Below, one piece after another: positions 5,964-9,656 of a stretch of DNA of 28,292 nucleotides (position 1 is its first letter; every line of letters starts with the position of its first letter). Source of the stretch: a virus; IMG/VR virus record IMGVR_UViG_3300038321_000117, positions 1-28,292 of that record; one strand, written 5' to 3'. A program made the position numbers and the translations under genes. The notes beneath the pieces are model-generated. The model did no database searches and had not been told where the DNA came from. It saw only the letters and a list, made by a program, of their open reading frames with translations.

Positions 5964-8900
5964 CTACTATATCCACACGCACAAGTTTTACATCCTTCAA
6001 CCATACTCAAATGTTCACCACATTCAGGACAGATGTTATCTTCCGTGGTTACTTTCACCTTACATGGAATAGAAATTGGTTCTGACTCTTTATCAGGAAT
6101 CAGACTTTCAATTACTCGACCGATAACATCCGAGCATGATTTTCCATCACAATTACCTTCAGAGAATTTCTTGTAAGCGACAGGACAAGTAACATTACGC
6201 AAAGTCTTGATTATATCCCAGGTAGGAACATTCCAACGCATTGAAAGAGAAATCATCTGTCCCAATGCATCATTCATAGCGGTGCAACCACCTTTATTAC
6301 TAATGATACACTCGTAAGGATTACCATCTTTTTCTGCAACGGAAATGATAAGTTTACCACAACCTGAACGTCTCTTACTATTTGTAGCGGGAAGATCAGA
6401 TGGACGTTTAGGTAGGATTCTACCATCGGGGAGTGTTGTTGTAGGTGTAGAATCTTTCTTGAGTTCAAGCACTTCAATGTCTCTACTTCCACTACGATAT
6501 ACGGTCATTCCCTTGAGATGCTTCTTCCATCCATAGAAGTAAATATCCCAAACTTCCTCTTCAGTGGTGTTATTAGGTAGGTTAATAGTCTTGGAGATGT
6601 TATTGCCCGTATACTTCTGAAACGCCGCCTGCATGTCAATATGTGCCTTTGGTGAGATGTCTAATGAAGTCTTAAACAATTCACGGAAATCCTTTGGTAA
6701 CCATGCAATATCTTGAATAGTTCCCTTTGCGTAAGCATGTTCAAGAACTGATTTCTTCATCCTGTCCCAATCGTAAGCACTGTAACGGGATTCAAGGTAT
6801 TCATCAAGTTTCTCTTCAAAGATTGGATGAACCTGTAAGTATCCTACCTTTTCACCATCGGCCCAGGTATAACGCTTATGCACAAGACTAAAGATAGGTT
6901 CAATGCCCGATGAACACCCTGCGAGTAGGCTGATAGTTCCAGTAGGGGCAATGATCGTTGTAGCACAATTATAACGCTTAATGTCTATATCACATTCATC
7001 AAATCTTGGGAATACCCTTGATAATTTATCTGCCATTACCTGTGATTCATGAATTGAGGTATTATTGATTAATTCCATATATTCTTCTGCTGTCTTTACT
7101 GCTTCAGGCGAATCGTAAGGAATATTAGACTTAATCAATAGATCATGCCAGCCCATTACTCCAATACCAATACGTCTAAACTCCTTTGTCATGTATTCTA
7201 CTTCTTCAACAGGGTAGAAATTCTTATCAGTAACGTTATTGAGGAAATGAGTAGCATGTCTTGTAATATTTGAAACATTGGAAATCTGCTTATCATAAAA
7301 GTTACTTAGATTAATACTACCAAGAATGCAACTTTCACCACCACCATTACAAGTAAGGAGATTCGATTCTGAGCACGCATTTTGGCCTATTTTAAATTCT
7401 GTGCCTTTATATGGTTCTTTTCTTGTAATCTCATCAACAAATAATACTCCAGGTTCCCCGAATCGATGGGCTCCATAAACAATTTTCTTGAATAAATCTC
7501 TTGCCTTGATTGTTCTGTAAACTTTACCATCAAATACAAGTTCCCAATCTTTATCTTCTTCAACCGCTTGCATGAAATTATCAGTAATTCTTACCGAAAT
7601 ATTCATATTAGAAAGTTTACCCTCTTCCAGTTTGGAAGTAATGAAATTTTCAATATCTGGATGACTTACACTTAAAGAAGCAAGCGCCGCTCCCCTTCGC
7701 TTATTATGCACCAATATTCCATTTGCTGAATATTCATGTGACATTGTTTCAATGTCTACAGTGTAACATTTTGTTCTGTTTAATTCTACTACTTTGGTGA
7801 AGTAATAATCATCGTTTAATAAATCTTCTTTAAGAATAGATTTATCAACAAGTTCACTTCTTTCAATCAAATCTAAAACTCTATATAATGATGGATTCCT
7901 ATCACCACGCATATATCTTCTAATTTCTTTGTTGATCTTAGGATAATTCTTTTTTTGTTCATCACAATAATATTCCTTGATCAGATTACCAATGAAAGGT
8001 ATTTTTGTTGAAGTGTTATATGGCTCATGAATTGCTTTTTTTCGTTCAACAAAAAATCCAATATTTTTATTAAATAATTCAATGCTGTTTTTATCGGTGA
8101 TCAGTAATGTATATAATGGATTTTTACCAAGACTATTTTCTCTTTGAGTTATACAAGATTTACGTGAAATAATACCAACAGAAAGTAACAAATATTGCAA
8201 TTCATTAATTAATTGTTCTGAAATTGTTGAATATGAAGGATACGATTTATATGCAATATGACCATCACAATTAAACATACCACGAATATAACTGTAAACT
8301 ACTGTTTTTGGTGATTCAAATATCTTTTTTGGAATACAGGCTTTTAATGATGATGATTTTTTCATCTTATTATATCTAATAAAATCTGTAAAGTATTTAC
8401 TTGCAATATGATAATTTGTGCTATTATCATTTTCTTTTTTAGATGCAGTATAATGTAAATTATATTTTACACACATTTCTTTAAATCTTTCAATGATTTC
8501 AACATCATCGTCATTAATACACATTGCAAATACTTTTTTAGATATACAGCCATCTGCAATATAAAATCCTAATAATTCAGCAAATTCTTCATCTAAATAA
8601 TCAGGTAAATTAATATCCGTTTTGACATTAAAATGATACTCGGATTTGGGTATCTTATCCAATTTAACATATTCATTAACAATATTCTCGCCCTTTTTAA
8701 TAACAACCCAATCATCAATCTTAATATCAGAAATACATTTCCAATCAAATTTGCCATCTTGATTGACAACTCTAATCATATGATTGTCTGTTGCCTTAAC
8801 ACTATAACCAAATTCGGTTTTAAGTTCAATAACATCACTTTCACCGTTATCTTGTGATAAGTAAGCGGTATCAAACCCATCCTTAGATAAAACCATTTCA

Positions 8901-9421
8901 TTTATTTCTGTATCAGCAAATGGTGGACAATCAATAAGACTACCAATTTTTTTGATACCTTTTGATGTCTGAATTAAAGTATCATGTGCAACACAACCAC
9001 CGCTTTTGCACGTTTCAACACCCTGATTGAACATTTCCATGAATGAAACTACACCAGATGAAGTTCCACCAGTAGAATGAATATAATCATCCTTTGGTCT
9101 AAGATTGGAGAAATCAATACCAATGCCTGCTCCATACTTCATTGAGATCATTGCATTTGTAAATGTCTTGAGAATATCACGCATATCATCATCTATCCCA
9201 AGACTTATACAAGCACTCATCATTGAGGTGTCTGTTCCCGCATTCATCAAAGCAGGCGAATTAGGCACAAAATCTTTATTCACCATCATATCATAGTAAA
9301 TCTCCCTCTCATCGTCCGTATTTCCTACATAGTCTGCAACCCTTCTACAGACATCTTCCCAGGACGATTCACCTTCACGGAAATAACGAGCAGCAAGAAC
9401 TTCATTAACAATATCACTCAT
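5954..9421 (-). CDS. nrdJ: class II (adenosylcobalamin-dependent) ribonucleotide reductase, intein-containing
   Basis: FVPNSPALMNAG, SAC, GAGIGIDFSNLRP, GEPG, NACSE (thiyl Cys), ESCILGSINL, RRIGIGVMG, IAPTGTISLLAGCSSGIEP, ISKTIN, YRSGSR, TSCPD-like domain and terminal Cys cluster. No ATP cone and no beta-subunit gene nearby. ATG 9421 preferred to TTG 9439. Confidence 0.92.
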   Translation of the reverse strand: MSDIVNEVLAARYFREGESSWEDVCRRVADYVGNTDDEREIYYDMMVNKDFVPNSPALMNAGTDTSMMSACISLGIDDDMRDILKTFTNAMISMKYGAGIGIDFSNLRPKDDYIHSTGGTSSGVVSFMEMFNQGVETCKSGGCVAHDTLIQTSKGIKKIGSLIDCPPFADTEINEMVLSKDGFDTAYLSQDNGESDVIELKTEFGYSVKATDNHMIRVVNQDGKFDWKCISDIKIDDWVVIKKGENIVNEYVKLDKIPKSEYHFNVKTDINLPDYLDEEFAELLGFYIADGCISKKVFAMCINDDDVEIIERFKEMCVKYNLHYTASKKENDNSTNYHIASKYFTDFIRYNKMKKSSSLKACIPKKIFESPKTVVYSYIRGMFNCDGHIAYKSYPSYSTISEQLINELQYLLLSVGIISRKSCITQRENSLGKNPLYTLLITDKNSIELFNKNIGFFVERKKAIHEPYNTSTKIPFIGNLIKEYYCDEQKKNYPKINKEIRRYMRGDRNPSLYRVLDLIERSELVDKSILKEDLLNDDYYFTKVVELNRTKCYTVDIETMSHEYSANGILVHNKRRGAALASLSVSHPDIENFITSKLEEGKLSNMNISVRITDNFMQAVEEDKDWELVFDGKVYRTIKARDLFKKIVYGAHRFGEPGVLFVDEITRKEPYKGTEFKIGQNACSESNLLTCNGGGESCILGSINLSNFYDKQISNVSNITRHATHFLNNVTDKNFYPVEEVEYMTKEFRRIGIGVMGWHDLLIKSNIPYDSPEAVKTAEEYMELINNTSIHESQVMADKLSRVFPRFDECDIDIKRYNCATTIIAPTGTISLLAGCSSGIEPIFSLVHKRYTWADGEKVGYLQVHPIFEEKLDEYLESRYSAYDWDRMKKSVLEHAYAKGTIQDIAWLPKDFRELFKTSLDISPKAHIDMQAAFQKYTGNNISKTINLPNNTTEEEVWDIYFYGWKKHLKGMTVYRSGSRDIEVLELKKDSTPTTTLPDGRILPKRPSDLPATNSKRRSGCGKLIISVAEKDGNPYECIISNKGGCTAMNDALGQMISLSMRWNVPTWDIIKTLRNVTCPVAYKKFSEGNCDGKSCSDVIGRVIESLIPDKESEPISIPCKVKVTTEDNICPECGEHLSMVEGCKTCACGYSRCG
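7703..8995 (-). mobile_element. 431-aa intein with LAGLIDADG homing endonuclease
   Basis: Starts CVAHDTLI after ...KSGG; block B TDNH; LLGFYIADGCI and YIRGMFNCDGHI endonuclease motifs; ends YSANGILVHN. Visibly more AT-rich than the exteins. The residue after the terminal Asn is Lys. Confidence 0.93.
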
Positions 9422-9422
9422 A

Positions 9423-9656
9423 TTACTCAACCTTCTCAAGTTTCATTACCACTTTCTCATACTCATAATATTTACCCGTCTTTTCAATAATCTTAGTCTG
9501 TACATTCTTGATTACGGGTTCATCCATTGCCATTGCAAGAATCTGTCCTGTTTCATCTCGAATTACAAATGTTACATTACCATTCAGAAAATGGGAGAAT
9601 GTTGCCTTAACATACTGTTCATTCTGATTCTGACTTTGTTTCTGTGTTTTAACCAT
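9423..9656 (-). CDS. hypothetical protein
   Basis: Fills the gap between thyA and nrdJ; ATG 9656 follows SD AGGAG. Confidence 0.55.
   Translation of the reverse strand: MVKTQKQSQNQNEQYVKATFSHFLNGNVTFVIRDETGQILAMAMDEPVIKNVQTKIIEKTGKYYEYEKVVMKLEKVE

What the first reader, a model, noticed from the sequence alone, without database searches (positions are those of the whole stretch)
7700..8995. RNR intein followed by Lys(+1), with no Cys/Ser/Thr nucleophile
Seen: the intein ends GTG CAT AAT (VHN) and the next codon is AAG (Lys, 7700-7702). Removing the intein gives ...KSGG|KRRGA..., the normal class II RNR GGKRRG motif, so Lys looks native. The intein otherwise looks intact (Cys1, TDNH, terminal HN, both LAGLIDADG motifs, 431 aa open frame). 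Established: canonical splicing needs Cys/Ser/Thr at +1; bacterial intein-like (BIL) domains are the known case of ligation without it. Inference: either non-canonical splicing (e.g. Asn cyclisation then aminolysis by the freed amine), or cleavage into a two-piece RNR, or a dead gene or single-base error (AAG vs Thr ACG).
Basis: partly seen in the sequence, partly recalled or inferred. Interest (0 to 1): 0.85.

Follow-up and report, generated by a model that had tools for sequence, protein, structure and literature searches.

The report
RNR intein lacking its splicing nucleophile
A virus gene for ribonucleotide reductase, the enzyme that makes DNA building blocks, carries an intact, mobile self-excising insert (intein) followed by lysine instead of the Cys/Ser/Thr that textbook protein splicing needs. 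The whole old intein lineage shares this junction, so an untested way of maturing the enzyme probably exists.

Summary
A 431-aa LAGLIDADG intein (Cys1 ... Val-His-Asn; window 8995-7703, minus strand) interrupts a B12-type (class II) RNR, and the next codon is AAG (Lys, 7702-7700). It is not a sequencing error. AAG is kept in three independent viral contigs amid synonymous changes, and both intein and exteins are under purifying selection.

The intein belongs to one strongly supported clade at the same RNR loop-2 site (QGG|x-RRGA). In that clade +1 is Lys, Arg, Ile or Val, while Cys1, block-B Thr/His and the terminal His-Asn stay conserved. Sister inteins at the site have Ser or Thr.

About 56 archaeal and bacterial species genomes carry the junction. 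In two complete Heimdallarchaeum genomes, a complete Micrarchaeota chromosome and one Promethearchaeota MAG, the intein-bearing gene is the only RNR found. Its other inteins have canonical +1 residues.

So the intein must be removed productively. The most likely route is BIL-A-like: a Gly(-1) thioester, Asn cyclisation, then attack by the freed alpha-amine. This is untested. Cleavage into a two-piece RNR is the main rival. A Lys epsilon-amine route cannot be general.

I found no paper describing this. The scan had already noted the same lineage (Arg+1) on Heimdall-group DNA.

The parts
5954..9421 (-). Class II (adenosylcobalamin-type, NrdJ-like) ribonucleotide reductase gene with a C-terminal TSCPD/Zn-ribbon tail. 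The ORF is open back to TTG 9439; ATG 9421 (MSDIVNEV) is the likely start. Stop codon at 5956-5954.
   Evidence: Ribonuc_red_lgN, Ribonuc_red_lgC, TSCPD. NCBIfam NrdJ_Z scores 504 bits against a cut-off of 400. Homologue P0003 starts at the equivalent Met.
8996..9421 (-). N-extein, ending ...VETCKSGG. Gly-Gly are positions -2 and -1.
   Evidence: RNR barrel profile positions 1-74 end at 8996.
7703..8995 (-). 431-aa intein: a HINT splicing domain plus a LAGLIDADG homing endonuclease.
   Evidence: AF2 model with pLDDT 89.7; best fold matches are the TliVMA, PhoVMA, PI-PfuI and PI-SceI inteins.
8993..8995 (-). Cys1 codon (TGT), the N-terminal splicing nucleophile.
   Evidence: Invariant in all 79 same-site inteins.
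8780..8791 (-). Block B Thr-Asp-Asn-His.
   Evidence: In the clade lacking a +1 nucleophile, Thr is 100% and His 90% conserved.
8546..8575 (-). LAGLIDADG motif 1 (LLGFYIADGC).
   Evidence: Asp-Gly conserved.
8258..8290 (-). LAGLIDADG motif 2 (YIRGMFNCDGH).
7730..7768 (-). Block F (CYTVDIETMSHEY), with Asp at the class-1 position F:4.
7703..7729 (-). Block G (SANGILVHN): penultimate His and terminal Asn. Val precedes the His; sister inteins with Ser/Thr at +1 mostly have Ser/Thr there.
7700..7702 (-). AAG = Lys+1, the first C-extein residue. It aligns with Arg206 of T. maritima NrdJ, in specificity loop 2.
   Evidence: Loop-2 numbering from PMC4728125.
5957..7702 (-). C-extein: KRRGA..., the thiyl-radical loop N-A-C-S-E (7384-7361), the second redox Cys (ESCILGS), and the TSCPD tail.
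   Evidence: aligned to 1XJE from residue 206 onward.; dN/dS 0.03-0.16.

Best explanation
This is a genuine, mobile class-1-type LAGLIDADG intein. It sits in allosteric specificity loop 2 of the NrdJ-type RNR of an archaeal-type tailed virus. It belongs to an old, monophyletic intein lineage that has lost the Cys/Ser/Thr at +1 but is still removed productively from its host enzyme.

Shown here:
- The junction is real.
- The lineage is one clade in which Lys, Arg, Ile or Val sit at +1.
- Its Cys1, block-B Thr/His, block-F Asp and terminal His-Asn stay conserved.
- The intein and the RNR exteins are under purifying selection.
- In several complete archaeal genomes the only RNR gene found carries this intein.

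Inferred mechanism, not tested:
1. Cys1 makes the usual N-S acyl shift, giving a thioester on the unhindered Gly(-1).
2. With no +1 side-chain nucleophile, no branched intermediate forms.
3. Asn431 cyclises with the help of His430 and frees the C-extein.
4. The new alpha-amino group of Lys+1 attacks the Gly thioester and makes a normal GG-K peptide bond.

This is the route proposed for type A bacterial intein-like (BIL) domains. It does not depend on the +1 side chain, which fits the Lys/Arg/Ile/Val variety.
For: - Junction and intact motifs.
- AAG is kept in three independent viral contigs amid synonymous change.
- Among 79 same-site inteins from 50%-identity representatives, +1 is S 27, T 23, K 20, R 5, V 2, I 2.
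- In the careful ML tree, all 29 inteins without a +1 nucleophile, plus two members that have Ser/Thr at +1, form one side of a branch (UFBoot 100, SH-aLRT 99).
- Inside that clade Cys1, the block-B Thr, the penultimate His and the terminal Asn are each 100% conserved. The block-B His is 90% and the F:4 Asp 87%.
- dN/dS: splicing domain 0.02-0.06, C-extein 0.03-0.16.
- A pattern scan of GTDB species genomes found about 56 real junctions of the form [VIL]HN|x-RRGA with x = K, R or I. Full-length open inteins of 432-450 aa (one of 381 aa) were recovered for 46 of them.
- In two complete Heimdallarchaeum genomes, a complete Micrarchaeota chromosome and a Promethearchaeota MAG, the only PF02867 match is the ORF with this intein, and there is no class III NrdD. 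The 2-4 other inteins in those ORFs all have Cys/Ser/Thr at +1.
- The site is one residue before the essential loop-2 Arg (T. maritima Arg207 = E. coli Arg298), so an unprocessed precursor should be inactive.
- The BIL-A mechanism is described in PMC4031507, which cites Dassa 2004 and Aranko 2013.
Against: - No experiment exists for any member of this clade.
- BIL-A domains give mostly cleavage products and little ligation (PMC4031507; PMC7664689). Efficient aminolysis would therefore be a new property.
- I found no residue that is conserved in this clade and absent from the canonical sisters that could explain improved aminolysis. The only sharp difference is Val versus Ser/Thr before the His.
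- Sequence conservation cannot separate splicing from double cleavage.
- Two lineages in the clade have a Ser/Thr at +1, which may mean the nucleophile-free state is costly.
- 'Sole RNR' rests on profile searches of metagenome-derived genomes.
Confidence: 0.5

Rival explanations
1. Cleavage only. The intein cuts itself out at both ends (thioester hydrolysis or thiolysis at the N-junction, Asn cyclisation at the C-junction) without ligation. A roughly 140-aa N-fragment and a 582-aa C-fragment then assemble non-covalently into a two-piece RNR.
For: - The same conserved residues (Cys1, Thr/His, His-Asn) would be needed, so fit this equally well.
- BIL domains mainly cleave.
- From my own knowledge, not tested here: functional split RNRs exist, such as Aeromonas phage Aeh1 NrdA-a/NrdA-b and Pseudomonas NrdJa/NrdJb.
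Against: - The nick would lie inside flexible specificity loop 2, one residue before the essential substrate-binding Arg.
- The other inteins in the same polypeptides keep canonical ligation-competent junctions.
- I did not search for natural intein-free genes split at this site.
Confidence: 0.22
2. Helper-dependent or otherwise unknown chemistry. A host or viral factor, or an unrecognised intramolecular relay, ligates the exteins or substitutes for the +1 nucleophile.
For: No conserved compensating residue was found inside the intein. The junction is present in very different hosts.
Against: The spread across Asgard, DPANN, methanogen-related, Chloroflexi and Patescibacteria genomes and a virus argues against a dedicated partner. 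No candidate gene is linked to it in the window.
Confidence: 0.1
3. Lys-specific route. The epsilon-amine of Lys+1 attacks the thioester, giving an isopeptide-linked RNR.
For: All viral members and most of the clade have Lys. The closest alleles lacking this intein mostly have Arg where the intein-bearing alleles have Lys.
Against: Arg (5 representatives, 19 species genomes), Ile and Val occupy +1 in the same clade with the same intact catalytic set. An isopeptide would lengthen loop 2 next to the essential Arg. The Lys could simply travel with the intein by co-conversion during homing (intein dS 0.33 versus extein dS 0.84).
Confidence: 0.05
4. No processing. The intein is dead or the RNR gene is non-functional, or the Lys codon is an artefact.
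For: Canonical chemistry cannot proceed. A virus can lose an auxiliary RNR.
Against: - AAG is reproduced in independent contigs.
- There is strong purifying selection on the splicing domain and exteins.
- The trait is clade-wide, with conserved catalytic residues over more than 1 substitution per site.
- It is the sole RNR found in complete archaeal genomes.
Confidence: 0.04

Closest known systems
Canonical class 1 LAGLIDADG inteins at the same NrdJ loop-2 site (QGG|T/S-RRGA), e.g. representatives P0009, P0010, P0134, P0137
   Same: Same insertion point and Cys1. Same block B, F and G architecture and same HEN type. 25-32% identity to the window's intein. They are the sister group in the tree.
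   Different: They have Thr or Ser at +1 and mostly Ser/Thr rather than Val before the penultimate His. The window's clade has Lys, Arg, Ile or Val at +1.
Type A bacterial intein-like (BIL) domains, e.g. Clostridium thermocellum BIL4 (Dassa et al. 2004; Aranko et al. 2013, as cited in PMC4031507)
   Same: A HINT domain with an N-terminal Cys, a C-terminal His-Asn and no +1 nucleophile. The proposed thioester, Asn cyclisation and alpha-amine aminolysis route is the best available mechanistic model.
   Different: From my own knowledge: BILs have no homing endonuclease, sit in variable bacterial proteins rather than a conserved site of an essential enzyme, and mostly cleave. This element descends from RNR inteins, and its sequence and fold matches are inteins, not BILs.
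HEN-associated archaeal inteins with solved structures (TliVMA 7QSS, PhoVMA 7QST, PI-PfuI 1DQ3, PI-SceI)
   Same: Best sequence matches (E 2e-16) and best fold matches (TM 0.71-0.75 to 7QSS) over both the HINT and LAGLIDADG domains.
   Different: By my own knowledge of these classic inteins, all are followed by a Cys/Ser/Thr. They also sit in a different host protein or a different site.
RNR loop-2 inteins followed by Gly in giant viruses and phages
   Same: According to those notes, a no-nucleophile junction in the same functional loop of RNR.
   Different: Class I RNR hosts and a different intein lineage, with Gly at +1. Not examined here.

Membership tests
Intein (class 1, HINT + LAGLIDADG HEN) | HINT splicing domain with blocks A, B, F and G | tested here: met
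   Pfam Intein_splicing ends at residue 579. TIGR01445 intein_Nterm scores above its cut-off. The AF2 model (pLDDT 89.7) matches the TliVMA, PI-PfuI and PI-SceI inteins.
Intein (class 1, HINT + LAGLIDADG HEN) | N-terminal Cys/Ser nucleophile, block-B Thr..His, and C-terminal His-Asn | tested here: met
   Cys1, T-D-N-H and V-H-N are present and conserved across the clade.
Intein (class 1, HINT + LAGLIDADG HEN) | Cys, Ser or Thr as the first C-extein residue (+1) | tested here: not met
   +1 is Lys (AAG 7702-7700). The clade has K, R, I or V.
Intein (class 1, HINT + LAGLIDADG HEN) | In-frame insertion at a conserved host site, whose exact removal restores the host protein | tested here: met
   RNR barrel profile positions 1-74 and 73-341 abut at the junction. 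Intein-free alleles read KSGG-K/R-RRGA.
Intein (class 1, HINT + LAGLIDADG HEN) | Mobility through a homing endonuclease | tested here: inconclusive
   Both LAGLIDADG Asp-Gly motifs are kept. The intein is much less diverged than its host gene between the window and L005 (dS 0.33 versus 0.84), which fits recent homing. Endonuclease activity was not tested.
Intein (class 1, HINT + LAGLIDADG HEN) | Demonstrated protein splicing (excision with extein ligation) | not testable with these tools
   Only indirect evidence: the gene is the sole RNR found in complete genomes.
Type A bacterial intein-like (BIL) domain | HINT domain with terminal His-Asn and no +1 nucleophile | tested here: met
Type A bacterial intein-like (BIL) domain | No endonuclease domain, located in variable non-essential bacterial proteins, and descent from the BIL lineage | tested here: not met
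   It has a LAGLIDADG HEN, sits in loop 2 of RNR and nests among RNR inteins. PDB sequence and fold matches are inteins.
Class 3 inteins (WCT motif) | No N-terminal nucleophile, with Cys at block F:4 | tested here: not met
   Cys1 is present and F:4 is Asp.
Class II (adenosylcobalamin) RNR, NrdJ | NrdJ family profile above its cut-off, with catalytic Asn/Cys/Glu and the redox Cys pair | tested here: met
   NrdJ_Z scores 504 bits against a cut-off of 400. The C-extein aligns to T. maritima NrdJ 1XJE with N-x-C-x-E and the second Cys kept. The thiyl loop reads NACSE rather than NPCGE.

The most novel reading that the evidence does not exclude
A further mechanistic class of protein splicing. True homing inteins ligate their exteins efficiently without any +1 side-chain nucleophile, by direct alpha-amine attack on a Gly thioester after Asn cyclisation. 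This would be efficient enough to mature the only ribonucleotide reductase of Asgard, DPANN and other archaea, and of viruses such as this one.
Probability: 0.45. Interest if true: 0.9.

Novelty: new variant of a known kind. Interest (0 to 1): 0.8.

Why it matters
Reviews treat a Cys/Ser/Thr at +1 as a requirement for inteins and as the reason they insert only before such residues (PMC4031507, PMC5784728). Here a whole, old lineage of otherwise ordinary homing inteins breaks that rule. It does so inside the substrate-specificity loop of an essential enzyme, and in some complete genomes inside the only RNR gene found.

If these inteins splice, three things follow:
- The requirement is not absolute.
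- The boundary between inteins and BIL domains blurs.
- Inteins could invade sites without a nucleophile.

A naturally optimised intein that leaves no Cys/Ser/Thr scar would also be a useful protein-ligation tool.

If they only cleave, many archaea would run on a two-piece RNR nicked in loop 2. That would matter for how allosteric specificity is transmitted.

Either outcome can be tested directly with a simple reporter construct made from this window.

Tried and rejected
- **Sequencing error (AAG versus ACG/AGC).** Rejected by three independent contigs and by distant homologues.
- **Shifted splice register.** Removing exactly Cys1..Asn431 gives the same loop length and motif as intein-free alleles. 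Any other register deletes or duplicates conserved RNR residues. Downstream Ser residues (+8 onward) would delete the essential RRGA.
- **Class 3 or class 2 mechanism.** Cys1 is present and F:4 is Asp.
- **Hidden compensating nucleophile inside the intein.** The column-by-column contrast of the two clades found none. The only sharp difference is Val versus Ser/Thr before the His.
- **Lys epsilon-amine as the general nucleophile.** Rejected because Arg, Ile and Val occur at +1.
- **Codon reassignment of AAG.** Not pursued. Lys codons are used normally throughout the gene, and Arg/Ile/Val members show the same pattern.
- **Literature.** Seven searches and three papers read gave no description of true inteins without a +1 nucleophile. 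The held library is not complete, so absence is not proof.
I used the search for related loci and DNA pattern scans instead.
- **Host clue.** A neighbour-gene comparison between the window and the Methanospirillum-MAG contig L066 gave no similarity.
- **Not done.** I did not search for natural intein-free NrdJ genes split at this site. I could not measure distances in the AF2 model because coordinates are not exposed.
Full report
**What is in the window**

On the minus strand an ORF runs from 9439 (TTG; the likely start is ATG 9421) to the stop at 5954. Pfam and NCBIfam identify it as an adenosylcobalamin-type class II ribonucleotide reductase. The hits are Ribonuc_red_lgN, Ribonuc_red_lgC, a C-terminal TSCPD domain, and NrdJ_Z at 504 bits against a cut-off of 400.

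The gene is interrupted by a 431-aa insert with Intein_splicing and two LAGLIDADG_3 hits. The junctions read ...VETCKSGG|CVAHDTLI... and ...ANGILVHN|KRRGAALASLSVSHPDI....

The RNR barrel profile matches positions 1-74 up to the last N-extein residue and resumes at position 73 at the first C-extein residue. Alleles without this intein read KSGG-K/R-RRGA. So the intein is exactly Cys1..Asn431, and Lys is the native residue at +1.

The window is an IMG/VR virus record estimated at about 41% complete. Neighbouring genes include family B DNA polymerase, ERCC4 and PD-(D/E)XK nucleases, thymidylate synthase, thymidylate kinase and a terminase.

**It is not an error or a dead gene**

Three independent IMG/VR contigs from different samples (L004, L005, L006; 90-93% identical in protein) keep AAG at +1, while the neighbouring codons differ synonymously.

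Nei-Gojobori dN/dS between the window and L004/L005:

| Region | vs L004 | vs L005 |
|---|---|---|
| Whole intein | 0.22 | 0.12 |
| Splicing domain | 0.06 | 0.02 |
| C-extein | 0.03 | 0.16 |

Against L005 the intein is far less diverged (dS 0.33) than the host gene (dS 0.84). That is the signature of recent homing into diverged RNR alleles.

The C-extein aligns from its first residue with T. maritima NrdJ (1XJE) starting at Arg206. The Asn-x-Cys-x-Glu thiyl-radical loop and the second redox Cys are retained.

**It is a clade-wide trait**

A word-indexed search and an exhaustive HMMER search returned many RNRs with an intein at the same place. I mapped both junctions by local alignment. This gave 79 same-site inteins from 50%-identity representatives, with +1 = Ser 27, Thr 23, Lys 20, Arg 5, Val 2, Ile 2.

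An IQ-TREE analysis with ultrafast bootstrap and SH-aLRT puts all 29 inteins without a +1 nucleophile on one side of a branch with support 100/99. Two members with a nucleophile fall on the same side (the quick tree agrees):
- P0190 has Thr at +1.
- P0007 has its junction slid by one residue, so that a Ser replaces the second Gly.

The label needs only three changes on the tree. If the root lies outside the clade, these are one loss and two regains.

Inside the clade, conservation of the catalytic set is as follows:

| Residue | Conservation |
|---|---|
| Cys1 | 100% |
| Block-B Thr | 100% |
| Block-B His | 90% |
| Block-F Asp | 87% |
| Penultimate His | 100% |
| Terminal Asn | 100% |

Both LAGLIDADG Asp-Gly pairs are also kept. 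The only sharp difference from the canonical sister group is the residue before the His: Val in 87% of the clade, versus Ser/Thr in the sisters. No clade-specific Cys/Ser/Thr that could stand in for the missing nucleophile was found.

**It occurs in cellular genomes, in the only RNR gene found**

A degenerate DNA pattern for A-N-x-x-[hydrophobic]-H-N-x-R-R-G-A, scanned over one genome per GTDB species, gave 69 loci. About 56 are real RNR intein junctions with +1 = Lys, Arg or Ile, and one has Ser. Carriers include:
- Asgard archaea: Heimdall-, Hod-, Hermod-, Thor- and Promethearchaeota
- DPANN archaea: Micr-, Aenigm- and Woesearchaeota
- Methanoperedens, Thermoplasmata, Methanomassiliicoccales, Culexmicrobium and Nitrososphaeria
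- Bacteria: Anaerolineae/Caldilineae and Patescibacteria

Cluster look-ups gave matching source names. Full-length open inteins of 432-450 aa (one of 381 aa) were recovered for 46 of the non-nucleophile junctions.

I searched five genomes for other RNR genes:
- Four have the intein-bearing ORF as their only match to the RNR barrel family, and no class III NrdD match. These are the complete genomes of Ca. Heimdallarchaeum endolithica PR6 and H. aukensis PM71, a complete Micrarchaeota chromosome, and a 5.9-Mb Promethearchaeota MAG. The control genomes behaved as expected.
- The fifth, Culexmicrobium, also has NrdD.

Those ORFs are 1979-2581 aa and carry three to five inteins. All the others are followed by Cys, Ser or Thr; only the loop-2 intein is followed by Arg or Lys. 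RNR is the only de novo route to dNTPs (PMC4390871 abstract). These organisms therefore must obtain active enzyme from a precursor that carries this intein.

**Where it sits in the enzyme**

Lys+1 aligns with T. maritima Arg206. In PMC4728125, T. maritima Gln203 equals E. coli Gln294, and carbonyl 208 equals 299. So the intein lies between the equivalents of E. coli Gly296 and Val297, inside specificity loop 2 (E. coli 292-301). That is one residue before Arg298, whose Ala mutant is essentially inactive. A 431-aa domain left in this loop should abolish activity. A permanent nick there would at least be risky.

**Mechanism**

The conserved Cys1/Thr/His set supports thioester formation at Gly(-1). 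The conserved His-Asn supports succinimide formation and C-terminal cleavage. Step 2 of canonical splicing, transesterification to the +1 side chain, is impossible.

The only described precedent for ligation without a +1 nucleophile is the type A BIL domain. There the alpha-amine freed by Asn cyclisation is proposed to attack the thioester (PMC4031507; it cites Dassa 2004 and Aranko 2013). Two observations fit such a side-chain-independent route:
- The clade has Lys, Arg, Ile and Val at +1. One sub-lineage switches between Lys, Val, Ile and Thr over short distances.
- In my small sample of RNRs without an intein at this site, the same position is R 14, K 6, A 5, T 3, V 2, M 2, D 2 and singletons. 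The +1 residues in the clade are drawn from that same range, so the intein seems to place little constraint on them.

Gly at -1 is the least hindered acyl donor; this point is inference.

Against this model, BIL-A domains mainly cleave, and I found no obvious adaptation for better ligation. Double cleavage into a two-piece RNR therefore remains a serious rival. A Lys epsilon-amine (isopeptide) route could apply only to the Lys members and is unlikely.

**Family membership**

By fold, sequence and descent this is an intein. The AF2 model built with a 38-row alignment has pLDDT 89.7. The best Foldseek matches are the HEN-associated inteins TliVMA (TM 0.71/0.75), PhoVMA, PI-PfuI and PI-SceI. Sequence matches to the PDB are the same set.

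It fails one defining feature of inteins, the +1 nucleophile. It shares that junction with BIL-A domains, but it fails the other BIL features: absence of an endonuclease, location in variable proteins, and BIL descent.

**Novelty**

Seven full-text searches and the reviews I read found no description of true inteins lacking a +1 Cys/Ser/Thr. One review states that inteins occupy sites 'preceding a nucleophile' (PMC5784728).

Earlier follow-ups in this scan reached the same reading for Arg+1 members in Heimdall-group genomes. They also noted Gly+1 inteins in the same loop of class I RNRs of giant viruses. I re-derived the Heimdall result independently.

This window adds a virus-borne, Lys+1, recently mobile member. 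In IMG/VR, the junction pattern found only the window's three close relatives with this junction; the other real viral RNR intein junctions it matched had Ser+1.

**Limits**

- No biochemical data exist.
- The tree root is not established.
- 'Sole RNR' relies on profile searches of metagenome-derived, though closed, genomes.

Noticed in passing
L006 (IMGVR_UViG_3300028624_000148) / protein P0004, residues about 693-826: This close relative of the window's RNR carries a second insert of about 135 aa at the thiyl-radical loop (QNP|CVSGDTLIL ... NGVILGQ|CGETNLL). It looks like a mini-intein ending in Gly-Gln with a canonical Cys+1. The window and P0003 lack it.
   Followed up: partly
window 7703-8995 versus 5957-7702, compared with L005: The intein is much less diverged than its host gene (dS 0.33 versus 0.84; dN 0.039 versus 0.136). 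This suggests recent homing between diverged viral RNR alleles. The intein-bearing alleles have Lys at +1 where the closest alleles lacking this intein mostly have Arg, so the Lys may be co-converted with the intein.
   Followed up: partly
window 7361-7384 (-): The thiyl-radical loop reads Q-N-A-C-S-E-S-N rather than the usual N-P-C-G-E. The near relative P0003 has QNPCGET and the L066 homologue has SNPCSET. The catalytic Asn, Cys and Glu are kept.
   Followed up: no
L077 (Ca. Heimdallarchaeum endolithica PR6, G001:C1:3040000-3051000): The only RNR ORF found (2498 aa) carries five inteins. One, at the NP|CGE site, ends ...IVSLD|C: a C-terminal Asp with no penultimate His. The loop-2 intein is 381 aa here against 448 aa in the sister species, which looks like an internal deletion in the endonuclease region.
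   Followed up: partly
protein P0007 (residues 261-689): This member of the clade has a canonical junction through a one-residue slide: KQG|C...LVHN|S-F-RRGA. The intein sits one residue upstream and Ser replaces the second loop-2 Gly.
   Followed up: partly
L066 (contig NZ_DAONKG010000013.1, Methanospirillum sp. MAG), 3421-6900 (-): An RNR that is 40% identical and fully co-linear with the window's, including the Lys+1 intein and the Cys-rich C-terminal tail. This is a possible hint that related viruses or proviruses are associated with Methanomicrobiales. The flanking gene showed no similarity to the window's.
   Followed up: partly
window 9421-9439 (-): The mechanical ORF starts at TTG 9439, but homologues begin at the Met seven residues in (ATG 9421, MSDIVNEV). 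The gene is probably 1155 aa.
   Followed up: partly
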